Below are positions 1,961 through 62,896 of a DNA stretch of 62,896 nt, in pieces; within the stretch, counting starts at the first letter, position 1, and each line of letters begins with the position of its first letter. The DNA is from a virus. Lineage: Duplodnaviria; Caudoviricetes. Under the pieces are notes generated by a model. That model was given only the letters and a program-made list of their open reading frames with translations. It was not told the DNA's origin and did not search any database. The translations under genes were made by a program, and so were the position numbers. The stretch spans positions 1 through 62,896 of the IMG/VR virus record IMGVR_UViG_3300041584_000032. One strand, written 5' to 3'.

Positions 1961-2129
1961 TATTTTTGATATGATTATATACTCTGACCAAGACGAACAC
2001 GACCAATGTAAAAGATGTGCGATAAGATGCGTTGAGCAAATTATACTATCTCACGACAATTGGGCAACAGAACAAGATGAATATTTAGACTATTACAATA
2101 AAGTAAAGCACGAAATTAGCTTATTGTAG
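1926..2129 (+). CDS. hypothetical phage protein
   Basis: MTPKEKAEQL...KRCAIRCVEQII, a small phage-type ORF. Confidence 0.65.
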   Translation: MTPKEKAEQLYNIFDMIIYSDQDEHDQCKRCAIRCVEQIILSHDNWATEQDEYLDYYNKVKHEISLL

Positions 2130-2130
2130 T

Positions 2131-2257
2131 TAACGAATAAGAATATGAATAGTAAGGCGACTTTTACAGAGGTTAGGCTTGGAGTAATGGGAGGCTACAT
2201 ACACGCTGTGACGTGGCAAATAGTAGATACTCGCCAAGTTGCCTTATTATTTATATT
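2131..2257 (+). repeat. 127-bp exact direct repeat, copy 1
   Basis: Identical to 62770-62896, the window end. Confidence 0.95.
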
Positions 2258-33383: not shown

Positions 33384-33409
33384 AAAGAGTGTCTTTGAAG
33401 ACACTCTTT
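33384..33409 (-). terminator. terminator hairpin built on the 16-bp palindrome (copy 3, 33389-33404)
   Basis: AAAGAGTGTCTTTGAAGACACTCTTT followed on the minus strand by T-runs, just after the capsid stop. Confidence 0.75.
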
Positions 33410-42429: not shown

Positions 42430-44646
42430 TTATGTTACTATATTAATTACTGTTCCGTTTATCCATAAGTCTCCTACATTTAAACCTGCTGAAGATGTAG
42501 CTAAGTTAGCTACATTAATAGTTCCTCTTAAAATTGTTTTCACAATGCTTGTATTCCCTAACGTTGCCGTGTTTGAACCTGCCCCGATTGCCGAGTATCC
42601 AATTACTATTTGGTTAGTTTCGTTATCTCCTAGTGCTTTAGTTTCAGCCCCTAAAAATACTGAATTGTTTGAAATGTTATTAGATGTTAAACCATCTGCT
42701 ATAAGACTTCCTGAATTATATCCAATTGCGGTGTTATTAGAACCCGTGGTATTAAACAGCAAAGCGCTTTCCCCATTTGCTGCGTTAAAAGATCCTGTGG
42801 TATTAAACATCAAAACACTTACTCCATTTGCTGTGTTAGAAGAACCTGTGGTATTAAACAGCAAAGAATTTCTTCCACCTGCTGTGTTATCATTTCCTGT
42901 GGTGTTTGAAAACAAAGCAGCCATTCCATTTGCTGTGTTGCTAAATCCTGTTGTGTTTGACTGCAAAGAAAAATATCCATTTGCGGTATTATAATCTCCT
43001 GTTGTGTTAAGTAGCAAAGCATCTACTCCATTTGCTGTGTTACCGGTTCCTGTAGTGTTATTTTGTAATGCTTGATATCCATTTGCTGTGTTGCTAAATC
43101 CCGTTGTGTTGTTTCGCAAAGCCTCTCTACCATTTGCTGTGTTAGAAGAACCTGTGGTGTTATTGTATAAAGCATTTATCCCACTTGCTGTGTTATCATT
43201 TCCTGTTGTGTTATTAAACAAAGCATTTGCTCCATTTGCTGTGTTACCAGCTCCTGTTGTGTTTGCTAACAAAGCATTTACCCCATTTGCTGTGTTAAAA
43301 CTTCCTGTTGTGTTGTTTTGCAAAGCACTTTGACCATTTGCTGTGTTAAAAGATGCTGTTGTGTTGTTTTGCAAAGCATTTACTCCGTTTGCAGTGTTAT
43401 TAGAACCTGTGGTGTTTGAAGACAAAGCACTTGCTCCACTTGCTGTGTTATCATTTCCCGTGGTGTTGTTTTGCAAAGAATATGCACCAAATGCAGTGTT
43501 AAGAGTTCCTGTGGTATTAAACAGCAAAGCACTTGCTCCACTTGCTGTGTTGAGAGATCCTGTGGTATTAAACAGCAAAGAACTTGCTCCACTCGCTGTG
43601 TTAGAAGAACCTGTGGTGTTTGAAGACAAAGCACTTGCTCCATTTGCTGTGTTGAGAGAACCTGTGGTATTAAACAGCAAAGCACTTACTCCATTTGCTG
43701 TGTTAGAAGAACCTGTGGTGTTTGAAGACAAAGCACTTGCTCCACTTGCTGTGTTGAAAAATCCTGTTGTGTTTGACTGCAAAGAAAAATATCCGTTTGC
43801 TGTGTTAGAAGTTCCAGTGGTGTTTGAGGACAAAGCACTTCTACCATTTGCTGTGTTATTAATCCCTGTTGTGTTTGCTAACAAAGCATTTACCCCATTT
43901 GCTGTGTTAAACTGTCCTGTGGTGTTATTTCTTAATGCTTGATATCCACTAGCTGTGTTAGAAGATCCCGTGGTGTTTGATTGCAAAGCACTTGCTCCAC
44001 TTGCTGTGTTGTCTAAACCCGTTGTGTTGTTTCCCAAAGAATATAATCCAATTGCAGTGTTATTCTCTCCTGTTGTGTTTTCAAGCAAAGATTCATATCC
44101 AAATGCAGTATTCCCTGTGCCTGTTGTGTTTGAAATTAAAACATTTACTCCTAATGCAGTGTTATCTATAATAGCACCCCCGCTACGACCTACTATTAGA
44201 GTTGAAATTAAAGCATCATTTATAACCTCTAAATCCGTAGCAAAAACACCACCATTTAGCAGAATATCTTGAGTAGCTGTATTGCCTGCATCAAGAACAT
44301 CTTGCAAGTTAGGTACTACAGGCTCAGGTAAGGTTTGCCAAAGCAATCCTGTTGATGAACTTGTTAAGACTTGACCCGGGAAACCAAACGTGTCATCCTC
44401 ATCTTGTATGTATGTGGGAGCAGCTACATTGCATACAATCAATCCATCTAGGACAATGCTCTGAGTAGCTGTATTGCCTGCATCAAGAACATCTTGCAAA
44501 GTTATATTCTCTTGAAACAGGGCTAAAAGACCTGCAAGAGAAAAATTAAATGTTGCATTAATAGGACTATCTCCAACTCTCGTTCCTATTAACTTATCTT
44601 CAAGTTTAGGCGTTGATGCAATAGCGTAATCATTTATTTTTCCCAT
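42430..44646 (-). CDS. tail fibre with 14-aa NTTGxxNTAxGxxAL beta-roll repeats
   Basis: Tens of tandem 42-bp repeats at about 42700-44170; two LQDVLDAGNTATQ motifs. Confidence 0.85.
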   Translation of the reverse strand: MGKINDYAIASTPKLEDKLIGTRVGDSPINATFNFSLAGLLALFQENITLQDVLDAGNTATQSIVLDGLIVCNVAAPTYIQDEDDTFGFPGQVLTSSSTGLLWQTLPEPVVPNLQDVLDAGNTATQDILLNGGVFATDLEVINDALISTLIVGRSGGAIIDNTALGVNVLISNTTGTGNTAFGYESLLENTTGENNTAIGLYSLGNNTTGLDNTASGASALQSNTTGSSNTASGYQALRNNTTGQFNTANGVNALLANTTGINNTANGRSALSSNTTGTSNTANGYFSLQSNTTGFFNTASGASALSSNTTGSSNTANGVSALLFNTTGSLNTANGASALSSNTTGSSNTASGASSLLFNTTGSLNTASGASALLFNTTGTLNTAFGAYSLQNNTTGNDNTASGASALSSNTTGSNNTANGVNALQNNTTASFNTANGQSALQNNTTGSFNTANGVNALLANTTGAGNTANGANALFNNTTGNDNTASGINALYNNTTGSSNTANGREALRNNTTGFSNTANGYQALQNNTTGTGNTANGVDALLLNTTGDYNTANGYFSLQSNTTGFSNTANGMAALFSNTTGNDNTAGGRNSLLFNTTGSSNTANGVSVLMFNTTGSFNAANGESALLFNTTGSNNTAIGYNSGSLIADGLTSNNISNNSVFLGAETKALGDNETNQIVIGYSAIGAGSNTATLGNTSIVKTILRGTINVANLATSSAGLNVGDLWINGTVINIVT

Positions 44647-47011: not shown

Positions 47012-48412
47012 TTAACTTGATGTTACTGTTTCGTAAGCGGTTGCCCCGCCTATTCTCATTTTATCTAATGTAGTATTAAAAAACTGAGCGCCTTTAACGT
47101 AGGCTGGTTCGGTTGCGGTTGTAAATTGTCCGCACGATACCGTGCCGCTGAACTTACCGTTGCCTACAACGTCAAGCTTTTCTGTTGGGTTGGATTGGTT
47201 TATACCAACGTTGGCAACAATTCCAGCGTTCAATATAATGTTTCCGTTTGGATTGACTAAAATATTACGTAAATCAAAACTGCTGTTACTATGTCCGAAA
47301 GAAAGACTATTATCGCTAGTTTGCCAACGAAAACCACCGTAATCTCCTAATCCTGAAGTATCTCCAATTAACAACCGCCTGTTTGACCCACTAAAAACAA
47401 AAACATCTCTGTTTGCTAACTGAAAACCTGCGACTGGGAGGGCAATTCCTACACCTACGTTTCCATTGGCTAATTCAGTAATTACACTATTACCAACCGC
47501 GCCACTTGCCGTGAATTTTGCTAGTTGGTTTGTTGTTCCTGAACCAGAAATTTTAGCATCTACTTCATCACTAAACGCAACAGCCTTAAACGCGCTGCCG
47601 TCGTGAATATTCATACGCGCGTTTTCATCTAGCATTACAGAGCCTTTAACAGCGTTTGTAATAGTGCTTAATGCAGCCGTAAAGAACTTTTGCATACCGT
47701 TTTTAAACAGCGTGTACGCGTCTGAACGGTTGTTTGTGTCTACTCCGTTGCCGTAGTTTACAAGTCTGTCTATAAGATTAAATACTGTTGCTGATTGTGG
47801 CGTGTAGTCTGTTCCGTTTACACCTCCAGAATGTTCTGCAAGTGAACGCGCAAACGTGCTACTTCCTTCTGCGTGCGATGAACTACCGCTTGCTGTTGTG
47901 CTAACTCCCTCTGCGTGCGATGCAAAACCACTTGCTGTTGTTTCATTTCCTTGTGCGTGTGATGCTTGACCACTTGCTATTGTGCCAATGCCCTCCGCGT
48001 GTGCTGATTCCTCACTTGCGGTTGTAGTGTCACCCTCTGCATGTGATGCGTAACCGCTTGCTTCTGTGCTGTTTCCTTCTGCGTGCGATGCAAATCCGCT
48101 TGCACCTGTGCTTAATCCTGATGCGTGTGAATAATCGCCTATCGCACCTTTTGTTGTGCTTGCGCTTTGTGAAATACTTAAATCTACCGCATCATCTCCT
48201 ATGTTGCCATAGTTTGCAGGGTCTGCATCTTTAAGCCTGTAACCTGTTTTACCGTTTTCTGTTACTTTTACAAGTTGACCAGCGCCAATAGAACCTGCGT
48301 TTATTTGCGTAGGCTCGCCTGTACCGTCTTGAATTAAAACTTTTGCATTTACAGGCAAAACGGTGTCCGTTACTTTTTCGTTAAAATAATCCTTAAATAG
48401 TTTAGTTGCCAT
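47012..48412 (-). CDS. second tail fibre/adhesin with YadA-head-like repeats
   Basis: 14-aa ASGxASHAEGxxT repeats; GNVGVG and NVGINQSNPTEKLDVVG fibre motifs. Confidence 0.8.
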   Translation of the reverse strand: MATKLFKDYFNEKVTDTVLPVNAKVLIQDGTGEPTQINAGSIGAGQLVKVTENGKTGYRLKDADPANYGNIGDDAVDLSISQSASTTKGAIGDYSHASGLSTGASGFASHAEGNSTEASGYASHAEGDTTTASEESAHAEGIGTIASGQASHAQGNETTASGFASHAEGVSTTASGSSSHAEGSSTFARSLAEHSGGVNGTDYTPQSATVFNLIDRLVNYGNGVDTNNRSDAYTLFKNGMQKFFTAALSTITNAVKGSVMLDENARMNIHDGSAFKAVAFSDEVDAKISGSGTTNQLAKFTASGAVGNSVITELANGNVGVGIALPVAGFQLANRDVFVFSGSNRRLLIGDTSGLGDYGGFRWQTSDNSLSFGHSNSSFDLRNILVNPNGNIILNAGIVANVGINQSNPTEKLDVVGNGKFSGTVSCGQFTTATEPAYVKGAQFFNTTLDKMRIGGATAYETVTSS

Positions 48413-53998: not shown

Positions 53999-54052
53999 AA
54001 TAAATACAACAGGTAACAACAACACCGCGCCCCAATAATATGCGCGTAAATA

Positions 54053-54068
54053 ATGTCTTTGAAGATAC
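54053..54068. repeat. 16-bp palindrome, degenerate copy
   Basis: ATGTCTTTGAAGATAC, 14/16 match. Confidence 0.7.
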
Positions 54069-54325
54069 TTTTTAAACGATGAATAAACATTTACAACTTG
54101 CTTTGAACCACCTTTAAAAAAAACCTTTGTACAAATCGCATAAATTTTACCTCTTGAAACCCTTGTAAACGCTAGAAAAATGAACTTTTAATAAAAAATA
54201 TCAAAAAAAAGTATTGAATTACTTTAGTATTAAACTAAATTTACACTATGAATAAACGAGTAAAACACTAGAAAATAACCTTAACACGCTGATAATCAGC
54301 AATTTAACCCTTAAAACCTTACATT

Positions 54326-54953: not shown

Positions 54954-55868
54954 ATGAATAATACAGGCATAACATATAATATTACAGGCGAAGCAAGCAG
55001 GGGTCGCGTATCTCGATACCACCAAAAGCCGAACGCAAACTTTTTAAATAAATCTAGGCATAAAGTAGACATTTCGGGACTCAAAAAAATCGAGCAAAAA
55101 AACACAATTTTGTTCGATGGTAATGAGTACGAAAGCAAATTTACTGTAGGTTTTGAGGTGGAGAAAAGTCAACTTAGCCGCGGTGCGGTACGTGAATATG
55201 AATTGTTTTGCGGTTTTGAGACCGATAGTAGCTGCGGGTATGAGGCGGTAACTCACGTGTTACCTTTGTTACCTCAGGGCCAGTGGCGAACTAAAGTCTA
55301 CGATATGATGCATAAAGCCGAGCGTATAATCGATGACAGACATAGTCCGAGCGATAAAAAATGCGGTGGACATATCACTGTTGCAGCCGGTGGACTAGGA
55401 GGCATGGAGCTTAATGAATTACTGCGCAAAAATTGCGGTATAATTCACGCTTTGTTTAGACACCGACTAAAAAATATTTATTGTGGATCAAACAGACGTA
55501 TGCAAAATAGGGCTGATGATAATTTCAATAGTGCAACAGGTGGTTGTTACCGGTCTACAGAATGTCATTGGAAATATCAAACGGTGTTAGTCAAAGGTAA
55601 CTGCGTAGAGTTTAGAGTCCCGTCCAAATTTGAGAGCGTTAAACAGATGATGAGACGGTACGAGCTGTTTTATGAGCTTATTAATTTTAGCGTAAACAAA
55701 CCGAACGGGACGTTCAAGAGTTTCTTAAAAATCATTAAGCCGATTGTGATTTCTATGTACAACGGGGACGAGGACAAAGCAAATGATATTTTAGCGCTCG
55801 CGGCAAGTTTTCAAGTTTTCATTAATACCGGTACTATCGCTGATGACATAGAGAAATTTCTAAACTAA
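54954..55868 (+). CDS. putative amidoligase (COOH-NH2 ligase, glutamine-synthetase fold)
   Basis: TVGFEVE, TDSSCGYEAVT, CGGHITV, VEFR. Confidence 0.85.
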   Translation: MNNTGITYNITGEASRGRVSRYHQKPNANFLNKSRHKVDISGLKKIEQKNTILFDGNEYESKFTVGFEVEKSQLSRGAVREYELFCGFETDSSCGYEAVTHVLPLLPQGQWRTKVYDMMHKAERIIDDRHSPSDKKCGGHITVAAGGLGGMELNELLRKNCGIIHALFRHRLKNIYCGSNRRMQNRADDNFNSATGGCYRSTECHWKYQTVLVKGNCVEFRVPSKFESVKQMMRRYELFYELINFSVNKPNGTFKSFLKIIKPIVISMYNGDEDKANDILALAASFQVFINTGTIADDIEKFLN

Positions 55869-55891
55869 AAAAAGCGCCCAACTCGGGCGCT

Positions 55892-55940
55892 CCGTCTCAA
55901 GGTATTCGCCTTGACTGATGAGTCCATAAGGACGAAACGG
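55892..55940 (+). ncRNA. type III hammerhead ribozyme 1
   Basis: CCGTC^TCAAGG-TATTCG-CCTTGA CTGATGA GTCC-ATAA-GGAC GAAA CGG; predicted cut after 55896. Confidence 0.95.
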
Positions 55941-55959
55941 TAACATTAAATTTTTTACT

Positions 55960-56049
55960 ATGAGCACGATTAAAAAAATGAGTTTCTATTACAAGTTCTG
56001 CATAGTGTTTTTGCTTTACTTTTTTCTACAGGTAATTTTTAGATCTTAA
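55960..56049 (+). CDS. 29-aa single-TM peptide
   Basis: MSTIKKMSFYYKFCIVFLLYFFLQVIFRS*; same leader as the 57819 ORF. Confidence 0.6.
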   Translation: MSTIKKMSFYYKFCIVFLLYFFLQVIFRS

Positions 56050-56271
56050 GGCTATGAGGTTCTTTTCAATTTTTTTCAAGGTAGTATTCGGTTTTTCTAC
56101 TTTGTTTTTCCTTTGGTTTTGTTGTCTAATTGGATGACATTGGATACGTGGCAAATAGGTTTTGTCATAGGTGTAAGCCTGACAAGTTTATACGGTTTTT
56201 CTTTACTACTTTATTTTGACATAGAGGATGATAGTAGGGACGACTAAATTTCGAGAAGGGCGAGAGCCCTT

Positions 56272-56320
56272 CCGTCTCAGGGTATTTGCCCTGACTGATG
56301 AGTCTATGAGGACGAAACGG
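56272..56320 (+). ncRNA. type III hammerhead ribozyme 2
   Basis: CCGTC^TCAGGG-TATTTG-CCCTGA CTGATGA GTCT-ATGA-GGAC GAAA CGG; compensatory change in stem I; cut after 56276. Confidence 0.95.
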
Positions 56321-56342
56321 TAACCGAAATAAAATCTACAAC

Positions 56343-56513
56343 ATGAGCAACACGACAAACAAAGTGTCTTTGAAGACACAAACCACAGAGGCTTACAGGT
56401 TCCACGTATGGATGGAGCGCATTAACAGTTTACATTTAGCCGATATTCAGGCGATGGACAGAGCGTTTTTAAAAGTAGAGGATGACTATATAGCTTTTTC
56501 AAACCGCTTGTAA
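56343..56513 (+). CDS. small hypothetical protein (56 aa)
   Basis: MSNTTNKVSLKTQTTEAYRFHVWMERIN...; read by eye. Confidence 0.6.
   Translation: MSNTTNKVSLKTQTTEAYRFHVWMERINSLHLADIQAMDRAFLKVEDDYIAFSNRL
56364..56379. repeat. 16-bp palindrome, copy 5
   Basis: Exact copy inside the 56-aa ORF. Confidence 0.95.
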
Positions 56514-56531
56514 CGCCCGTGAACACAGGGA

Positions 56532-56588
56532 AAGTAAAAATAAGTGAAAATAAATTAGGCAGTGTCGATTACTCGTTCTATATTTGTC
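56532..56588 (+). promoter_or_regulatory. early promoter, copy 1 of a 57-bp duplicated element
   Basis: AAGTAAAAATAAGTG...TAAATTAGG...TATATTTG (56579-56586); colinear with 58108-58164. Confidence 0.75.
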
Positions 56589-56627
56589 TAATCTAAGTCT
56601 AATAATAACAATCTAAAACAAAACACA

Positions 56628-57071
56628 ATGAGAAGATTTGAAAACGCAGCAGTAAAATTGTACAACGCCTTTAACAATGGTACACTAGACCAAAATAAAT
56701 GCACGGCTTGCGCAGTCGGCAATTTGTTGGGTCATGCCTTTTGGACAGGCAGTGCAAACATAACAACAGAATTAATTGAAGGAGTAAGAACGGTACAACC
56801 ACTTACGAGGAATTTAATAAGAATGCATAAAGACCATAGCATTAAAGAACTAGTCGAGAACACGAGCGAGTACACTATTGAGGAACTAAGCAAAATCGAG
56901 CAGACTTTTTTGGATAGTTTTGTCGGGCTGAACTACAACGAAGAGAAAAGCAAAGACAACCAATACAATGCACTAATGGCAGTGCTAGAATACCTAGCGG
57001 AACTAGACAACATTGAAGTGCCGGAGGTAACAGTAAATGAATTTCAAAGAGTATTACAAAATAACAATTAA
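56628..57071 (+). CDS. hypothetical protein
   Basis: RFENAAVKLYNAF...CTACAVGNLL. Confidence 0.75.
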   Translation: MRRFENAAVKLYNAFNNGTLDQNKCTACAVGNLLGHAFWTGSANITTELIEGVRTVQPLTRNLIRMHKDHSIKELVENTSEYTIEELSKIEQTFLDSFVGLNYNEEKSKDNQYNALMAVLEYLAELDNIEVPEVTVNEFQRVLQNNN

Positions 57072-57082
57072 AATCAAAAGAC

Positions 57083-57718
57083 ATGAGCAATTTAATCACA
57101 ACACAAATTTGTAGAGCCTTTGAGGCGGGAGAAGTATTTAAAAAGTCAAACGATAGCACAGACGGTGTTACAATGTTCTTATATGGAAATGCGATAGCAG
57201 CACACAGGAGTAATGGGATGTGGATAACGAACGCAGGATGGGCAACGGTAACGACAAAAGCACGTCTCAATGGACTTACAGGTGTAAGCATATCACAGCG
57301 TAAAGGGGTTTGGTATTTAAACGGAGCAGAATGGGACGGGGATTGGGTTTTCGTTTCAGAATGGAATGAGTCAATACAACAGGCAGTTGCGGTGGAGCAA
57401 TACGACACCACAATAGAGTGGATAAGCACAGGTGGCTACAGAGGCTACGACAGACCCGTGTATGCGGTGTGTGGAGCGAATGATACGGGTATGTGGGCAG
57501 ATAGTCCTTGCAGGTCAGATGTGGCGACAAAAGAGCTTAATGGAGTTTCTAAGGACTTAAAAGAGATGCAGGTTCCCCATAAAGAGATGCAGACACACAG
57601 CTCAAATGTATTTTGCGAGCATAGGTACTTAATCGTACCGCCTGAATTTTTTGAGACCGCAAAGGGGATTGTCAATCACTACATAAGTATGAACGAAACA
57701 AGACTCTTGTACAACTAG
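57083..57718 (+). CDS. hypothetical early protein
   Basis: LYGNAIA...AGWATVTTKARLNGL, then WISTGGYRGY domain. Confidence 0.75.
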   Translation: MSNLITTQICRAFEAGEVFKKSNDSTDGVTMFLYGNAIAAHRSNGMWITNAGWATVTTKARLNGLTGVSISQRKGVWYLNGAEWDGDWVFVSEWNESIQQAVAVEQYDTTIEWISTGGYRGYDRPVYAVCGANDTGMWADSPCRSDVATKELNGVSKDLKEMQVPHKEMQTHSSNVFCEHRYLIVPPEFFETAKGIVNHYISMNETRLLYN

Positions 57719-57729
57719 AAAAACGGGGA

Positions 57730-57745
57730 GTGTCTTCAAAGACAC
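57730..57745. repeat. 16-bp palindrome, copy 6 (reverse orientation), core of the hairpin before hammerhead 3
   Basis: GTGTCTTCAAAGACAC. Confidence 0.95.
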
Positions 57746-57750
57746 TTCCT

Positions 57751-57799
57751 CCGTCTCAAGGTGTTTGCCTTGACTGATGAGTCCATGAGGACGAAACGG
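57751..57799 (+). ncRNA. type III hammerhead ribozyme 3
   Basis: CCGTC^TCAAGG-TGTTTG-CCTTGA CTGATGA GTCC-ATGA-GGAC GAAA CGG; cut after 57755. Confidence 0.95.
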
Positions 57800-57818
57800 T
57801 AACATTAAATTTTTTACT

Positions 57819-58037
57819 ATGAGCACGATTAATTTACAGAAACACGTATGGGAAGGTTGGACAGTTTCAGACTTCATTGATGAGTTGGAGCCTAGCTTCA
57901 ATATGATAATGGGAGGACAGTCCTACATGAGTCCTTTTAAAAGCAACGATCAACTAAAAGAATGGTGCAAGGACAACCAACCGTACTACAAGAAACATAT
58001 ACCTGATGTGTTTAACTATTTTAAAAAGAAAATCTAA
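57819..58037 (+). CDS. hypothetical protein
   Basis: HVWEGWTVSDFIDEL...WCKDNQPYYKK. Confidence 0.75.
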   Translation: MSTINLQKHVWEGWTVSDFIDELEPSFNMIMGGQSYMSPFKSNDQLKEWCKDNQPYYKKHIPDVFNYFKKKI

Positions 58038-58107
58038 CAGGCTCCGGCTTATGTTCCGTGATATTTCGGCAAGCTTTAAGCCTAGCAACGGAAGACATAG
58101 TAAATTT

Positions 58108-58164
58108 AAGTAAAAATAAGTGCGATTAAATTAGGTAGTGTCTATTACTAGTACTATCTTTGTC
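58108..58164 (+). promoter_or_regulatory. early promoter, copy 2
   Basis: TATCTTTG at 58155-58162 with the same spacing as copy 1. Confidence 0.75.
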
Positions 58165-58226
58165 GAATATTAGTTTATTAATCAGGATTCTATGCTTTAT
58201 AGAGCATTATCCAAAAAAATCAAGTT

Positions 58227-59312
58227 ATGTGTATTATTATCATTAAACAGAAAGGGTTAAAAGTTTCAACCGCAACCCTAAAAAAATCAGCAAAAATAAA
58301 TCCTCACGGTTTAGGGATTATTTGGTTGGACACCTACAAAGTTGAGTACAAAGAGTCTTCAGAGTATTCTCATTTAGTTACAGACAGACCATACATTGCG
58401 CACTTCAGATATGCTACAGTGGGCGCTATAGGTCGTTCAAATATGCACCCTTTTGTGTGCGGTAAAAAGACAGATGAGTTGCTTATGATGAACGGCACAA
58501 TTGCAGGGATGGGAAACGAGAAAGTTTGCGATTCAAAGATATTAGCAGAAAGCTTGGGAGATTTACCTAGACAGTTTTGGACAAAATCACTAGAGAAACA
58601 CAACTGTAGATTCATTACAGCAAATATCAGAAACAGATCATTTCAAATTTACAACAAATTAGATTGGTTCCAACGTGCAGGGGTTTGGTTCAGCAAAGAG
58701 AATGTACTACAGGAAAACTATGTAGCGGTGTATGGTACTTTAAAATATGGTTATTCAAATTACTTCGCATACCTATCAACCTCATCGTTTTTAGGTTCAG
58801 GCAAGACAAAGGACAAGTACCCATTAGTAGTTGACAGGCTACCATATCTTATAGAGGATAAAGGGATAGGCTACCACGTCAATGTGGACGTATTTAAAGT
58901 TACAGGTTCAGTGTTCGACAACCTAGACATTTTAGAAGGACACCCGAATTGGTATCAACGAAAGCAGATACGTATAGACCTAAAAGGTAAAAGTGTTTTG
59001 TGTTGGGTTTACTTCAACATACGAGAAACTTCAAAGGGTAGACCTTATCAATCTACCTATGTACAGAAGCCAATTAAAAATACTCTTAAGCATTTTAAGT
59101 TAGACAAATACATTGCTCCTTCACAGGAGTACAATATTGATATATTTAACGAAAGATACCTACCGGAGCACGTCAATGAGTTCGATATAGAGAAAGAGAT
59201 TCCGATGTGCTTGTATTGCTACAACGATTTAGTGTTCGATGGGTTTAACAATTACTATTGTAGTTCATGCAATAATTGGTTTGCAGAGAAAGATGTTGTG
59301 AAAGATTTTTAA
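58227..59312 (+). CDS. class II glutamine amidotransferase fused to a gamma-glutamylcyclotransferase (AIG2-like) domain and zinc ribbon
   Basis: N-terminal MC, NPHGLG, HFRYATVG, HPF, NGTI; then VYGTLK and LDILEGHP; C-terminal CLYC...CSSC. Confidence 0.9.
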   Translation: MCIIIIKQKGLKVSTATLKKSAKINPHGLGIIWLDTYKVEYKESSEYSHLVTDRPYIAHFRYATVGAIGRSNMHPFVCGKKTDELLMMNGTIAGMGNEKVCDSKILAESLGDLPRQFWTKSLEKHNCRFITANIRNRSFQIYNKLDWFQRAGVWFSKENVLQENYVAVYGTLKYGYSNYFAYLSTSSFLGSGKTKDKYPLVVDRLPYLIEDKGIGYHVNVDVFKVTGSVFDNLDILEGHPNWYQRKQIRIDLKGKSVLCWVYFNIRETSKGRPYQSTYVQKPIKNTLKHFKLDKYIAPSQEYNIDIFNERYLPEHVNEFDIEKEIPMCLYCYNDLVFDGFNNYYCSSCNNWFAEKDVVKDF

Positions 59313-59325
59313 ATTTGCACGGGGA

Positions 59326-59341
59326 GTGTCTTCAAAGACAC
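59326..59341. repeat. 16-bp palindrome, copy 7 (reverse orientation), core of the hairpin before hammerhead 4
   Basis: GTGTCTTCAAAGACAC. Confidence 0.95.
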
Positions 59342-59347
59342 TTCCCA

Positions 59348-59394
59348 CGTCTAAGGATGATTGTCCTTACTGATGAGTTCATAAGAACGAAACG
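59348..59394 (+). ncRNA. type III hammerhead ribozyme 4
   Basis: CGTC^TAAGGA-TGATTG-TCCTTA CTGATGA GTTC-ATAA-GAAC GAAA CG; covarying stems I and II, 3-bp stem III; cut after 59351. Confidence 0.9.
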
Positions 59395-59415
59395 GAACCA
59401 CTTAAACATTTGACA

Positions 59416-59640
59416 ATGAGGATATTAGCGATTAGCGCAACAGAACACGATGAGGAAGACTTCTACCTCGTTACAGACCTAAGCGACAGCGACATAGTAA
59501 ACGTGCTTAGACCCATAGTAAAAAGAGAACGGGAAGGCCAACATGACTACGAGTTGGAGCATTTAATAACAGCTTTAAGAAAAGCGTTCCCTAAGAATAA
59601 AATAGACCTGTATGAGGATGTAGGCACGATAAGAATATAA
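59416..59640 (+). CDS. hypothetical protein
   Basis: ATG at 59416 (MRILAISAT...), 21 nt after hammerhead 4. Confidence 0.7.
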   Translation: MRILAISATEHDEEDFYLVTDLSDSDIVNVLRPIVKREREGQHDYELEHLITALRKAFPKNKIDLYEDVGTIRI

Positions 59641-59641
59641 A

Positions 59642-59790
59642 TAGGCGGCAATGGAAATCCTTGCTTGTCGGCAATGTAGGCCCTTACGATGCTAACGGTA
59701 AAATTAGTGGTCGCCTAAAAACCCTCTCGGGTTTACTCACAGAACTAAAATCGTAAGAAGACTGACAGCTTGGAAAGACAGGCATTTTTT
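59642..59790 (+). ncRNA. candidate pseudoknotted structured RNA
   Basis: Two crossing 8-bp helices plus further hairpins fill the intergenic gap. Confidence 0.45.
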
Positions 59791-59809
59791 TAATTAAAAT
59801 AGATTCAAA

Positions 59810-60130
59810 ATGAATGAGAATATAAACCGAAAGGATAAAATAGTAAAGGCAGTGATCGACAAGTATCAGGAGCGTTCTGAAATAGGACAAGAGAAATACG
59901 GAACTACCTTGGAGCGAAACGACTTACCGATGATAGCGTGGATGCAACACCTGCAAGAGGAGTTAATGGATGCTACGTTGTATTTAGAGAAATTAAAATC
60001 AGACCTAACTAGTCGGCAAGATTCAAATGATTCTTACGTAATTACAAAAGAGTCTTGGAGTAGTGCAAGCAAGATAACAAAAGGAGGATTCATTTATGTA
60101 AAGTTCTCAGACCTTAAAATTTTAAAATAA
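59810..60130 (+). CDS. MazG-like/all-alpha NTP pyrophosphohydrolase-type protein
   Basis: GQEKYGTTL...HLQEELMDATLY. Confidence 0.6.
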   Translation: MNENINRKDKIVKAVIDKYQERSEIGQEKYGTTLERNDLPMIAWMQHLQEELMDATLYLEKLKSDLTSRQDSNDSYVITKESWSSASKITKGGFIYVKFSDLKILK

Positions 60131-60893: not shown

Positions 60894-61580
60894 ATGAAAA
60901 TAGCAAAATATACTTTTGAAAAACTGTCAGCTATCAATGTGAACGCTCACGTTGAGAAGAAAAGCAACCTTACCTACCTATCTTGGGCTTGGGCTTGGAG
61001 CGAAACGAAGAAGGCTTGTCCGGATGCAACTTATAAGATTGGATCCACAGACTACGATGAGACACTAGGATTCATGTGCCATACCGAGGTTACTATTTCA
61101 GGAGAGACATTGGAGATGTGGTTGCCCGTTATGGATGGAGCCAACAAATCAATGCGAAAAGTACCTTACACCTACAAAGGGAACGCTTGGGAGTCAGGTA
61201 AGAAAGTAACTATTGACAAGACGGTAGAGGCAGCAACGACCTTTGATATAAATAAGACCATTATGAGATGCTTGGTTAAGAACTTAGCCATGTTTGGTTT
61301 GGGTATTTATATATATGCAGGCGAAGACCTACCGGAGACTATAGCAGAGGCGACACCTACGTCAGCCCCAAAGCGAGAGGATGTTGTTTCAGTTAAAAAA
61401 GAAGTTGAAGCGCCTACATTAGAGGCACTTGAAAAGGACACAGACAATTGGAGAAAAGTCGTTAAATATGTTACCGACAACAAGGTTCAAGGCATTGAGA
61501 AAATTGGAAAGCAACTGAGTCGAAAGTACAGTATGACACCTGAAATCAAAAAAATGATAATCAAATTAATAAGCGAATAG
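60894..61580 (+). CDS. sak: Sak (Rad52-like, DUF1071) single-strand annealing protein
   Basis: LTYLSWAWAW, MWLPVMD, INKTIMRCLVKNLAMFGLGIYIYAGEDLP. Confidence 0.9.
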   Translation: MKIAKYTFEKLSAINVNAHVEKKSNLTYLSWAWAWSETKKACPDATYKIGSTDYDETLGFMCHTEVTISGETLEMWLPVMDGANKSMRKVPYTYKGNAWESGKKVTIDKTVEAATTFDINKTIMRCLVKNLAMFGLGIYIYAGEDLPETIAEATPTSAPKREDVVSVKKEVEAPTLEALEKDTDNWRKVVKYVTDNKVQGIEKIGKQLSRKYSMTPEIKKMIIKLISE

Positions 61581-61582
61581 TC

Positions 61583-62326
61583 ATGGAAAATTTAAAAGAT
61601 GTTCTTGAGTTGTTGAAAGATGACACTCAATACTACACAGGGATTGGTAAAGAGTACCTATCTAATTCAGACATAGGCACGTTGCTCAGCAACCCACGTC
61701 TATATGGAAAAGAACGTGAAGACAGCAAGGCTTTCATGGAAGGGAGGTATTTTCATCAGTTGATTCTTGAGCCTAGCAAGGCAAAGGACTTAATGTTTGT
61801 GGACTGCAGCACCCGAACTACAAAGATATATAAGGAGTTTTGCGAAACGAACAGCCTTCCTTTTTGTATGCTACAGAAAGAGAAAGAAGATGTTGAAGAG
61901 TTGGTTTCTGTTATCAAGGCAAACATTACTTTTTACGAAGAGATCTTTAAAGAAGGCAATCAGTACGAGGTTCCTGCGGTTACGGAAATCCATGGGATGA
62001 TGTGGAAAGGAAAGGCCGATATAGTTACCAACGAGATTATAATAGACCTTAAGACCACCTCAGACATAGAGAAGTTCAAGTGGAACGCAAAGAAGTACAA
62101 CTACGATTCACAGTGCTATATTTATCAGATGCTTTTCGGAAAGCCGTTAGTGTTTTTTGTGATAGACAAAACGAGTCAGGTTCTAGGTATTTTCAGACCG
62201 ACACAAGAGTTTGTAGATGGTGGAGAGCAGAAAGTCATTAAAGCAATCGAGGCTTACAACCGATACTTTTCTGTCAATTCCAAAGAGGATATAGATAGCT
62301 ATTTTGTGGATGAATACTTATTTTAA
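61583..62326 (+). CDS. RecE/DUF3799-like PD-(D/E)XK exonuclease
   Basis: LSNSDI, GRYFH, KGKAD, DLKTT, YDSQCYIY. Confidence 0.85.
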   Translation: MENLKDVLELLKDDTQYYTGIGKEYLSNSDIGTLLSNPRLYGKEREDSKAFMEGRYFHQLILEPSKAKDLMFVDCSTRTTKIYKEFCETNSLPFCMLQKEKEDVEELVSVIKANITFYEEIFKEGNQYEVPAVTEIHGMMWKGKADIVTNEIIIDLKTTSDIEKFKWNAKKYNYDSQCYIYQMLFGKPLVFFVIDKTSQVLGIFRPTQEFVDGGEQKVIKAIEAYNRYFSVNSKEDIDSYFVDEYLF

Positions 62327-62612: not shown

Positions 62613-62769
62613 AAGCGAAAGCAGACAAAGCACAAAGAGATGCTGTCGCTAAAGCCTATGCTACTAAAGCTAAGAGAAAGAAGTAGCAAATTGATTTAGT
62701 GTGCGGTAGGTCTTTTATTTTAAATTTCTAACTAAATTTTCAATCGAAGACCTACTGCCCTATTTCATA

Positions 62770-62896
62770 TAACGAATAAGAATATGAATAGTAAGGCGAC
62801 TTTTACAGAGGTTAGGCTTGGAGTAATGGGAGGCTACATACACGCTGTGACGTGGCAAATAGTAGATACTCGCCAAGTTGCCTTATTATTTATATT
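62770..62896 (+). repeat. 127-bp exact direct repeat, copy 2
   Basis: Identical to 2131-2257. Confidence 0.95.

What the first reader, a model, noticed from the sequence alone, without database searches (positions are those of the whole stretch)
55874..59418. Four hammerhead ribozymes punctuate the phage early operon: a self-processing mRNA system
Seen: four sense-strand type III hammerheads (55892, 56272, 57751, 59348) with intact CUGAUGA and GAAA cores and GUC cleavage sites. Stems covary: stem I TCAAGG/CCTTGA, TCAGGG/CCCTGA, TAAGGA/TCCTTA; stem II GTCC/GGAC versus GTTC/GAAC. All keep a 6-nt loop I starting with U and a 4-nt loop II ending in A. Context is the same each time: stop codon, GC-rich hairpin with no U-tract, ribozyme, 19-22-nt leader, ATG. 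Known: the loop I U / loop II A contact is typical of fast natural hammerheads, cleavage leaves a 2',3'-cyclic phosphate and a 5'-OH, and T7 splits its early mRNA with RNase III. Inference: this phage splits its early transcript without protein, leaving each piece a 3' hairpin and a 5'-OH stem-loop end, like natural RiboJ insulators. Phage hammerheads are known individually. I do not know of this repeated operon-punctuating layout being described, but cannot check.
Basis: partly seen in the sequence, partly recalled or inferred. Interest (0 to 1): 0.92.

Follow-up and report, generated by a model that had tools for sequence, protein, structure and literature searches.

The report
Four hammerhead ribozymes between phage genes
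Four genuine self-cutting hammerhead RNAs sit between genes of a 63-kb environmental phage, each just after a stable hairpin and about 20 bases before the next gene, but this layout has been known in phages since 2011 and is common.

Summary
Four same-strand type III hammerheads lie at 55892-55940, 56272-56320, 57751-57799 and 59348-59395. All have intact cores and GUC cut sites, and stems I and II covary. Rfam scores are 36.5-44.7 bits, all below the 48.5 cut-off. A model built from them found 101 matches (84 distinct sequences) in 45 sources, 98.5% paired.

The stop, hairpin, ribozyme, 19-22-nt leader, ATG layout is real. It recurs across a group of related viral contigs, many 50-65 kb.

The layout is not new. 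Perreault et al. 2011 (PMC3088659) described clustered hammerheads flanking phage genes, proposed transcript processing and showed cleavage. In my sample, 38 of 120 hammerhead-bearing viral loci carry two to seven copies. This scan has also noted such arrays on other DNA.

I found two points in no paper I searched. An abutting upstream hairpin goes with type III (28 of 37) and not type I (10 of 137) hammerheads. The conserved hairpin also punctuates genes without any ribozyme.

No RNA data exist, so cleavage is inferred.

The parts
55873..55891 (+). Hairpin 1 (7 bp, loop AACUC). It lies 4 nt after the TAA stop at 55866-55868, abuts stem III of hammerhead 1, and has no U-tract after it on the + strand.
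   Evidence: MFE -13.5 kcal/mol, gap 0
55892..55940 (+). Hammerhead 1, type III. Stem III CCGU/ACGG, C17 at 55896 (predicted cut between 55896 and 55897), stem I UCAAGG/CCUUGA, loop I UAUUCG, core CUGAUGA, stem II GUCC/GGAC, loop II AUAA, GAAA.
   Evidence: (44.7 bits)
55941..56049 (+). 19-nt A/U-rich leader and a 29-aa hydrophobic ORF (ATG at 55960). The ORF is conserved in L009 and L012.
56255..56272 (+). Hairpin 2 (GAAGGGC/GCCCUUC, loop GAGA), after the TAA stop at 56245-56247. Its last pair shares one base with stem III.
   Evidence: MFE -10.4
56272..56320 (+). Hammerhead 2, type III. Predicted cut after 56276. Stem I UCAGGG/CCCUGA. Stem II GUCU/GGAC has a U-G pair, which is C-G in other strains.
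   Evidence: 44.0 bits; 56305 T>C
56321..56513 (+). 22-nt leader and a 56-aa ORF (ATG at 56343). The ORF contains a copy of the 16-bp palindrome at 56364-56379.
56532..56606 (+). 75-nt repeat, copy 1, with a TAnnTTTG box. It is promoter-like, and that role is unverified.
   Evidence: D10, 83% identity between copies
57725..57750 (+). Hairpin 3 (11 bp around GUGUCUUCAAAGACAC), after the TAG stop at 57716-57718. It abuts stem III. The same hairpin core is used, with a U-tract, at the terminator-like site near 33389.
   Evidence: weak MicX-model match showing the hairpin plus U-run; MFE -15.7
57751..57799 (+). Hammerhead 3, type III. Predicted cut after 57755. Together with its leader and first five codons it is 96% identical to hammerhead 1 over 84 nt.
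   Evidence: 44.0 bits; D4
57800..58037 (+). 19-nt leader and a 72-aa ORF (ATG at 57819).
58108..58182 (+). 75-nt repeat, copy 2 (promoter-like, unverified). It lies ahead of the 361-aa amidotransferase-like/gamma-glutamyl cyclotransferase fusion gene at 58227-59312.
59321..59346 (+). Hairpin 4 (11 bp, same GUGUCUUCAAAGACAC core), after the TAA stop at 59310-59312. It ends 1 nt before stem III.
   Evidence: (MFE -18.6)
59348..59395 (+). Hammerhead 4, type III. Predicted cut after 59351. Stem III is only 3 bp (CGU/ACG). Stem I UAAGGA/UCCUUA and stem II GUUC/GAAC carry four compensatory changes relative to copy 1.
   Evidence: (36.5 bits)
59396..59640 (+). 20-nt leader and a 74-aa ORF (ATG at 59416).
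59768..59790 (+). Terminator-like hairpin followed by a run of seven T. It is a possible end of the transcription unit that holds hammerhead 4.

Best explanation
The four elements are active type III hammerhead ribozymes, transcribed as part of the phage's + strand early/recombination gene block. Each most likely cuts the nascent message between two genes. This part is inferred.

Proposed steps:
- The upstream hairpin forms first. It has no U-tract, so transcription runs on.
- The ribozyme then folds, with its short 3-4-bp stem III directly abutting the hairpin.
- It cleaves after C17.
- The upstream mRNA is left ending in the hairpin plus 4-5 nt and a 2',3'-cyclic phosphate.
- The short stem III lets the two products separate.
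- The downstream mRNA starts with a 5'-OH and two ribozyme hairpins, followed by a 19-22-nt unstructured A/U-rich leader and the ATG.

The likely result is that neighbouring genes get separate stabilities and separate translation.

What is shown and what is inferred:
- Shown: the sequence anatomy, selection on the fold, and conservation of the layout.
- Inferred: transcription, cleavage in vivo, and the effect on stability or translation.
For: Ribozyme identity:
- All invariant core positions and the GUC sites are intact in 4 of 4 copies.
- Rfam Hammerhead_3 gives E 1.6e-6 to 3.3e-4.
- Among the four paralogues, 4 pairs show compensatory changes and 98.2% of cells are paired.

Selection across relatives:
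- The model found 101 matches (84 distinct sequences) in 45 sources.
- 98.5% of cells are paired, 12 of 14 pairs change on both sides, and 0 of 500 shuffles reach the observed score. Slid controls give 36-46% paired.
- This alignment was fitted to the model, which favours the structure.
- H17 is C in 73, A in 19 and U in 3 of 95 unique contexts, and never G. The core is CUGAUGA in 90 of 95 and CUGACGA in 5 of 95.
- Loop I starts with U in 84 of 84, and loop II ends in A in 83 of 84.

Layout:
- All copies in a source lie on one strand, in 45 of 45 sources.
- 86 of 95 contexts have a hairpin of -8 kcal/mol or better ending within 3 nt of the ribozyme. The leader length peaks at 20-25 nt.
- True terminator-like copies of the same hairpin in this window carry a U-run (near 33389). 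The four pre-ribozyme hairpins do not.

Type contrast, in a sample of 120 viral loci:
- 28 of 37 type III hammerheads have an abutting hairpin.
- 10 of 137 type I have one, as do 140 of 1200 random positions.
- After clustering, the counts are 17 of 26 against 9 of 108, Fisher p = 3e-9.
- This fits a need for a 3' hairpin that type I supplies itself.

Precedent:
- Three tandem phage or prophage hammerhead arrays cleaved in vitro, and one cleaved in E. coli (PMC3088659, passages read).
Against: - No RNA evidence exists. None of the 8 public runs that hold the stretch is RNA.
- All four copies score below Rfam's gathering cut-off.
- Stem III is 4 bp, and 3 bp in copy 4.
- Nearest-neighbour folding does not recover stem III. 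In copies 1, 2 and 4 the MFE pairs CGUC with part of the core. In copy 3 the hairpin extends over CCG of stem III. Misfolding or regulated folding is therefore possible.
- The nearest GenBank relative, MW202828.1 (74% identical primase, syntenic early region), has no hammerhead in 18.5 kb searched with filters off and with Rfam. The ribozymes are therefore dispensable for this genome type.
- Promoter-like repeats and a terminator-like site inside the stretch argue against one long operon.
- The canonical Bacteroidota promoter pattern is not enriched: 6 matches against 5.14 expected. Transcript structure is therefore unknown.
- Tight abutment of hairpin and stem III fits coaxial stacking as well as it fits 3'-end protection. 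The two readings are not separated here.
Confidence: 0.72

Rival explanations
1. The hairpin is mainly a structural clamp for the ribozyme. By stacking coaxially on the very short, open stem III and shielding it from upstream coding sequence, it makes a 3-4-bp stem III workable. Protection of the 3' end would be incidental.
For: - The gap between hairpin and ribozyme is 0 nt in 49 and 1 nt in 34 of the 88 contexts with a stable hairpin, out of 95 contexts examined.
- Stem III is 3-4 bp here.
- Type I hammerheads, whose open helix is stem I, lack such hairpins: 10 of 137 have one.
Against: - The same hairpin occurs without any ribozyme at many junctions: 142 of 217 in the related loci, and 14 copies in MW202828.1. 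It therefore has a role of its own.
- 9 of 37 surveyed type III hammerheads manage without a hairpin.
- Some relatives with 5-7-bp stems III still have one (L009, L006).
Confidence: 0.3
2. The hammerhead modules are chiefly repeats that mark the joints of exchangeable gene cassettes. Recombination between near-identical ribozyme and leader repeats would shuffle small genes. Alternatively, the RNA between two ribozymes is excised and circularised or spliced. Cutting of mRNA would be secondary.
For: - Hammerheads 1 and 3 are 96% identical over 84 nt, including the leader and the first five codons of unrelated ORFs.
- Units of 219-408 nt flanked by two hammerheads carry unrelated small genes in different phages.
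- Stem III is the same in all copies within a genome, while stems I and II covary.
- Contigs of other phages begin to match, or stop matching, at 59348, 57819-57831 and the 75-nt repeats (loose ends).
- MW202828.1 lacks the ribozymes.
Against: - Strong purifying selection on the catalytic core and on loop positions is not needed for a recombination repeat.
- No integrase or reverse transcriptase lies nearby.
- Perreault et al. looked for spliced or circular products and found none.
- The loose ends in metagenome contigs are weak evidence.
Confidence: 0.2
3. The motifs are inactive relics or chance matches. Alternatively, the hairpins terminate transcription so the ribozymes are rarely made.
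For: - Scores are below Rfam's gathering cut-off.
- Stems III are short.
- The MFE folds do not show stem III.
- Hairpins 3 and 4 share their core with terminator-like sites.
Against: - 0 of 100 shuffles give as many core matches.
- Covariation is far above the controls.
- H17 is never G in 95 contexts.
- No U-tract follows the four hairpins.
- Among the unique GTGTC-N6-GACAC hairpins examined in the related loci, 0 of 66 that are followed by a hammerhead have a U-tract.
Confidence: 0.05

Closest known systems
Clustered hammerhead ribozymes flanking genes in prophages and phages (Perreault et al. 2011, PLoS Comput Biol, PMC3088659; passages read; supplements and figures not seen)
   Same: Several same-strand hammerheads sit in intergenic positions and flank single genes or short blocks of non-constant identity in a phage. 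The proposed role is processing of long transcripts into gene-length mRNAs. One phage hammerhead is reported 13 nt before a start codon.
   Different: The text I read does not mention an abutting upstream hairpin ('terminator' occurs 0 times). All four copies here are type III, in an uncultured, probably lytic 63-kb phage. No bacterial or archaeal genome among 185,579 species held the hairpin-hammerhead pattern.
Rfam Hammerhead_3 (RF00008)
   Same: The core, the three helices and the type III topology match over the full length of the model, positions 1-54.
   Different: Scores are 36.5-44.7 bits, under the 48.5 cut-off, because stem III is 3-4 bp and loop II is 4 nt. Standard annotation would miss them.
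RNase III processing of phage T7 early mRNA (recalled from general knowledge, not checked in a paper here)
   Same: A polycistronic phage early transcript is cut between genes, and the pieces end in a 3' hairpin.
   Different: In T7 the cut is made by a host protein in long double-stranded stems. Here the cut would be made by the RNA itself, just 3' of a 6-11-bp hairpin, leaving a cyclic phosphate and a 5'-OH.
RiboJ-type synthetic ribozyme insulators (recalled, not checked here)
   Same: A hammerhead upstream of a gene removes the variable 5' context and leaves a defined 5'-OH end.
   Different: RiboJ carries an added 3' hairpin. These ribozymes are followed by an unstructured 19-22-nt leader and preceded by a hairpin instead.
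Intrinsic (Rho-independent) terminators
   Same: A G+C-rich hairpin lies right after a stop codon. Hairpins 3 and 4 share the core of terminator-like sites in the same genome.
   Different: No U-tract follows on the + strand.

Membership tests
Hammerhead ribozyme, type III (RF00008) | Conserved core C3-U4-G5-A6-N7-G8-A9 and G12-A13-A14 | tested here: met
   CUGAUGA and GAAA are present in 4 of 4 copies. Among relatives, 90 of 95 have CUGAUGA, 5 of 95 have CUGACGA, and 94 of 95 have GAAA; the remaining copy is cut off at the contig end.
Hammerhead ribozyme, type III (RF00008) | A15.1-U16.1 pair and a cleavage-site nucleotide H17 that is not G | tested here: met
   GUC is present in 4 of 4 copies. 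H17 is C in 73, A in 19, U in 3 and G in 0 of 95 contexts.
Hammerhead ribozyme, type III (RF00008) | Three helices supported by covariation, with stems I and II closed and stem III open | tested here: met
   Among the four copies, 98.2% of cells are paired and 4 pairs are compensatory. Among 84 distinct relatives, 98.5% are paired, 12 of 14 pairs are compensatory and 0 of 500 shuffles reach the score.
Hammerhead ribozyme, type III (RF00008) | Score at or above Rfam's gathering cut-off (48.5 bits) | tested here: not met
   Scores are 44.7, 44.0, 44.0 and 36.5 bits. There are no matches at the gathering threshold.
Hammerhead ribozyme, type III (RF00008) | Loop I-loop II tertiary contact needed for fast cleavage at low Mg2+ | tested here: inconclusive
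   The loop positions are conserved: U first in loop I in 84 of 84, A last in loop II in 83 of 84.
Hammerhead ribozyme, type III (RF00008) | Site-specific self-cleavage | not testable with these tools
   No RNA run holds the stretch. This needs in vitro transcription.
Clustered phage hammerheads that process polycistronic RNA (Perreault 2011) | Two or more co-oriented hammerheads flanking single genes or short gene blocks in a phage or prophage | tested here: met
   Four copies lie in 3.5 kb on the + strand, flanking units of one to two genes. The record is a virus genome rated 100% complete.
Clustered phage hammerheads that process polycistronic RNA (Perreault 2011) | The ribozymes are co-transcribed with the flanking genes | not testable with these tools
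   No RNA data exist. Promoter-like repeats and a terminator-like site lie within the stretch.
Intrinsic terminator | Hairpin followed by a U-tract | tested here: not met
   None of the four hairpins is listed as a + strand terminator-like site. Hairpin 1 and the hairpin 3 core appear only on the - strand. The sequence after each hairpin is CCGUC or ACGUC.

The most novel reading that the evidence does not exclude
The basic punctuation mark of this phage group is the conserved, strand-specific hairpin, GUGUCUU-CA-AAGACAC or its variants. The type III hammerhead is an add-on that supplies protein-free cleavage 4-5 nt past that hairpin.

The pair would then act as one composite signal that forms a 3' end without terminating transcription. 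Type III hammerheads in phages would generally depend on such a hairpin, because unlike type I they leave no hairpin of their own on the upstream product. At junctions that have the hairpin alone, a sequence-specific protein would do the cutting or binding.

Evidence that does not exclude this reading:
- 142 of 217 such hairpins in the related loci have no ribozyme. After removing duplicate contexts, 101 of the ribozyme-free ones are sense or symmetric in orientation and lack a U-tract.
- 14 identical palindromes punctuate the ribozyme-free relative MW202828.1, several in a stop, hairpin, leader, ATG frame.
- On the sense strand the hairpin centre is UUCAAA 133 times and UUUGAA 25 times.
- An abutting hairpin accompanies 76% of type III hammerheads and 7% of type I.
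Probability: 0.3. Interest if true: 0.55.

Novelty: new member of a known kind. Interest (0 to 1): 0.3.

Why it matters
The biological role of bacterial and phage hammerheads is still called 'largely elusive' (2019 review, PMC6765202). This phage adds no new principle.

It does belong to a well-populated group in the viral collection: 42 stretches carry the exact hairpin-hammerhead pattern, and 101 ribozyme matches were found across 45 sources. Within that group the same junction occurs with and without the ribozyme. That gives natural controls for testing whether self-cleavage sets mRNA stability or translation.

The link between type III hammerheads and an abutting hairpin is a simple, testable rule. 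It could improve annotation, since these copies fall under Rfam's cut-off. It could also inform the design of ribozyme insulators.

Tried and rejected
RNA evidence: the look-up of sequencing runs listed 8 holders, none on record as RNA, so expression could not be examined. Read laying on four DNA contig sets gave strain variants only. These include 56305 T>C, which turns a U-G pair into C-G, and an extra T at 56116. It also gave loose ends at module borders. There is no evidence on cleavage.

First viral scan: my pattern had one N too many between the cut site and the core. Its zero result means nothing.

Nearest cultured or deposited relatives: blastn of the region against 50,697 phage records found only short gene matches. 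MW202828.1 was found through the primase and has no hammerhead.

Host: the hairpin-hammerhead pattern was found in 0 bacterial or archaeal genomes. Protein neighbours are phages of Flavobacteriia. The host is therefore only inferred as Bacteroidota.

Promoters: the sigma-70 scan showed no enrichment, 35 found against 38.5 expected. The recalled Bacteroidota pattern TTTG-N16-22-TAnnTTTG also showed none, 6 against 5.14. The 75-nt repeats remain 'promoter-like' only.

Translation-gated or hairpin-switch idea: only copy 3 has an upstream ACGG that can extend the hairpin over stem III. Copies 1, 2 and 4 do not, so I rejected it as a general mechanism.

Loop-loop pseudoknot: no register held in all copies when inspected by eye. 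Left open.

Spacer 59638-59812: the fold z-score is -1.28 and Rfam has no match there. I did not pursue it.

Literature for the hairpin-ribozyme pairing:
- Searches found no description of it.
- Perreault 2011 has 0 occurrences of 'terminator'.
- The three 16-nt motifs occur in 0 papers.
- Supplements (Perreault Figures S1-S7, Dataset S1) are closed and may show such hairpins.

Survey limits:
- Hammerheads were called by my own regular-expression detector, not Infernal. Type II was not sought.
- 4 of 120 loci gave no call.
- The hairpin criterion (-8 kcal/mol or better, within 3 nt) is arbitrary.

Full report
WHAT IS THERE. The window is a complete virus record of 62,896 bp (CheckV 100%). Reading 55700-59600 shows four near-identical 49-nt elements on the + strand. 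Each has the order stem III 5' strand, GUC, stem I hairpin, CUGAUGA, stem II hairpin, GAAA, stem III 3' strand, which is the type III hammerhead topology.

Rfam finds nothing at gathering thresholds. At E-value thresholds it lists Hammerhead_3 four times. These are 55889-55943 (44.7 bits), 56269-56323 (44.0), 57748-57802 (44.0) and 59344-59398 (36.5), all full-length and all under the 48.5-bit cut-off. The core pattern occurs 6 times in the window against 1.27 expected, and 0 of 100 shuffles reach 6. A covariance model of the four copies (R1), run with filters off over both strands, finds no fifth copy; the next hit scores 12.3 bits.

Among the four copies, 98.2% of pair cells are standard pairs and 4 of 14 pairs change on both sides. 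Slid controls give 30-50% paired. Stem III never varies, and in copy 4 it is reduced to 3 bp by an A/G mismatch.

THE FRAME AROUND EACH COPY.
- Stop codons: 55866, 56245, 57716 and 59310.
- Hairpins: 55873-55891, 56255-56272, 57725-57750 and 59321-59346. Their MFEs are -10.4 to -18.6 kcal/mol, and each ends 0-1 nt before the ribozyme.
- The ribozyme follows.
- Leaders: 19, 22, 19 and 20 nt, A/U-rich.
- ATGs: 55960, 56343, 57819 and 59416.

None of the four hairpins is followed by a U-run on the + strand. Hairpins 3 and 4 share the 16-nt core GUGUCUUCAAAGACAC with a terminator-like site of the late genes near 33389, which does carry a U-run.

GENOMIC SETTING. The + strand block holds recombination and replication genes:
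- a Sak-type annealing protein at 60894-61580;
- an exonuclease at 61583-62326;
- NinG/Rap, a methyltransferase, and primase/helicase genes.

It diverges from a - strand block that starts with a GroEL-like gene. The genes next to the ribozymes are mostly of unknown function. The exception is a 361-aa amidotransferase-like/gamma-glutamyl cyclotransferase fusion before copy 4.

Two 75-nt repeats with a TAnnTTTG box lie at 56532-56606 and 58108-58182. They follow the single small genes behind copies 2 and 3. A hairpin with a T-run at 59768-59790 follows the small gene behind copy 4. The stretch may therefore be several transcription units, in each of which the ribozyme separates the last small gene from the genes before it. 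This is inference. Neither promoter scan was enriched.

RELATIVES. A 98%-identical partial contig has copies 1-3 in the same places. A pattern for this stem II type found more distant viral contigs. L009 has two copies that are syntenic with copies 1 and 2 but have stem I GCAAAG/CUUUGC and a 7-bp stem III. L006 has three copies, each behind an identical but different hairpin.

A pattern joining the GTGTCTT..AAGACAC hairpin to a hammerhead core found 42 stretches in the viral collection. Many of the contigs are 50-65 kb, and up to four exact copies occur in one stretch. The same pattern found none in one genome each of 185,579 bacterial and archaeal species.

Model R1 then found 101 hammerheads in 45 sources. 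Their features are:
- 84 distinct sequences, 98.5% paired, 12 of 14 pairs compensatory, 0 of 500 shuffles as high (this alignment was fitted to the model);
- H17 never G, and the core CUGAUGA in 90 of 95 unique contexts;
- all copies in a source on one strand, in 45 of 45 sources;
- 86 of 95 contexts with an abutting hairpin;
- leaders mostly 20-25 nt;
- loop I starting with U in 84 of 84, and loop II ending in A in 83 of 84.

The fold and the layout are therefore under selection in a whole phage group. This is the strongest available argument that the ribozymes work.

NOT ESSENTIAL. The closest GenBank genome is MW202828.1, with a 74% identical primase. Its early region has the same GroEL-like gene, cyclotransferase fusion and exonuclease. 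It has no hammerhead in 18.5 kb. Instead a perfect 16-bp palindrome, GTGTCGTTAACGACAC, occurs 14 times there. Several copies sit in a stop, hairpin, roughly 17-20-nt leader, ATG frame, for example after the cyclotransferase gene.

In the hammerhead-bearing loci, 217 GTGTC-N6-GACAC hairpins were counted on the sense strand. Of these, 75 are followed by a hammerhead and 142 are not. After removing duplicate contexts, 101 of the ribozyme-free copies are sense or symmetric in orientation and lack a U-tract. The hairpin centre reads UUCAAA 133 times and UUUGAA 25 times on the sense strand, so the signal is strand-specific. The hairpin is thus the more general punctuation mark, and the ribozyme sits behind it at a subset of junctions.

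HOW COMMON IS THE LAYOUT?
- 38 loci hold two to seven hammerheads, always on one strand.
- 78 loci hold one, and 4 hold none.
- Both type I and type III copies sit close to a following ORF. An ATG-led ORF starts within 40 nt for 30 of 37 type III and 91 of 138 type I copies, against 302 of 1200 random positions.
- Units flanked by two hammerheads carry unrelated small genes in different phages.

A four-copy array is therefore ordinary among hammerhead-bearing phages.

A RULE I DID NOT FIND IN PRINT. An upstream hairpin of -8 kcal/mol or better, ending within 3 nt of the ribozyme, accompanies:
- 28 of 37 type III copies;
- 10 of 137 type I copies;
- 140 of 1200 random positions;
- 21 of 173 positions placed 60 nt upstream of a hammerhead.

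After clustering at 80% identity the counts are 17 of 26 against 9 of 108, Fisher p = 3e-9.

A simple reading follows. A type I hammerhead cuts just after its own stem III hairpin, so the upstream product already ends in a hairpin. A type III hammerhead cuts before stems I and II, so the upstream product needs a hairpin supplied from outside. The tight 0-1-nt spacing fits coaxial stacking on the short stem III equally well. I cannot separate the two readings.

LITERATURE.
- Perreault et al. 2011 (PMC3088659; passages read). [quoted passage not shown] Three tandem arrangements cleaved in vitro, and the A. tumefaciens array cleaved in E. coli. Spliced or circular products were sought and not found.
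- The 2019 review (PMC6765202; passages read). It calls the bacterial roles 'largely elusive' and repeats the polycistronic-processing suggestion.
- A 2026 paper on RNA viruses (PMC13725137; passages read). It notes DNA-encoded hammerheads in bacteria and phages, with roles that remain elusive.

This scan has also noted hammerhead punctuation of phage operons many times on other DNA: 834 notes hold the search words, and one follow-up describes hairpins before hammerheads in unrelated phages.

WEAK POINTS.
- No RNA data exist.
- The Rfam scores are below threshold.
- Stem III is short.
- The MFE folds prefer other pairings of the cut-site strand.
- The transcript structure is unknown.
- My survey used an ad hoc detector and one seed pattern.
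- Supplements of the 2011 paper could not be opened.

VERDICT. The mechanism is plausible and supported by strong comparative evidence. The kind is already known, so this is a new member of it. There is a modest new angle in the hairpin-type III pairing and in the hairpin-only junctions of relatives.

Noticed in passing
window 10319, 17610, 33389, 40453, 56364, 57730, 59326 (16 nt each); an imperfect copy within 54048-54073: The 16-bp near-palindrome GTGTCTT(CA/TG)AAGACAC occurs seven times exactly. Four copies lie inside ORFs. Relatives carry it in large numbers, and MW202828.1 has 14 copies of a perfect palindromic variant in 18.5 kb (L023). Such strong sequence conservation suggests a protein recognises it.
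   Followed up: partly
window 56110-56120 (T-run near 56116): The second small membrane ORF between hammerheads 1 and 2 is split into 27 aa and 37 aa pieces here. It is a single 64-aa ORF in L012. Contigs of three other runs carry one extra T at 56116. This is either a real frameshift or a homopolymer assembly error.
   Followed up: partly
window 55890-55973 and 57749-57832: Hammerheads 1 and 3 are 96% identical over 84 nt, including the leader and the first five codons (MSTI-) of otherwise unrelated ORFs. This points to gene conversion or module duplication. Assembly contigs of the likely source run break at these repeats.
   Followed up: partly
window 2122-2257 and 62761-62896: A 136-nt direct repeat (97% identity) joins the record's last bases to a site 2.1 kb from its start. 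Further short repeats lie at 2129-2876. I did not examine them.
   Followed up: no
window 42670-44165 and 47823-48172, - strand genes: Long tandem arrays with periods of 51 nt (24 copies) and 42 nt (7 copies) lie inside large - strand ORFs. They are probably repeat-domain structural proteins.
   Followed up: no
window 59638-59812: This is a 170-nt gene-free spacer after the ORF that follows hammerhead 4. Its fold is not better than shuffles (z = -1.28), and Rfam has no match. It ends in a terminator-like hairpin with a T-run.
   Followed up: partly
L057 (7 copies) and L106 (5 copies in 1.7 kb): Other viral contigs carry much denser arrays of type I hammerheads, spaced 250-960 nt apart, than the window does.
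   Followed up: no
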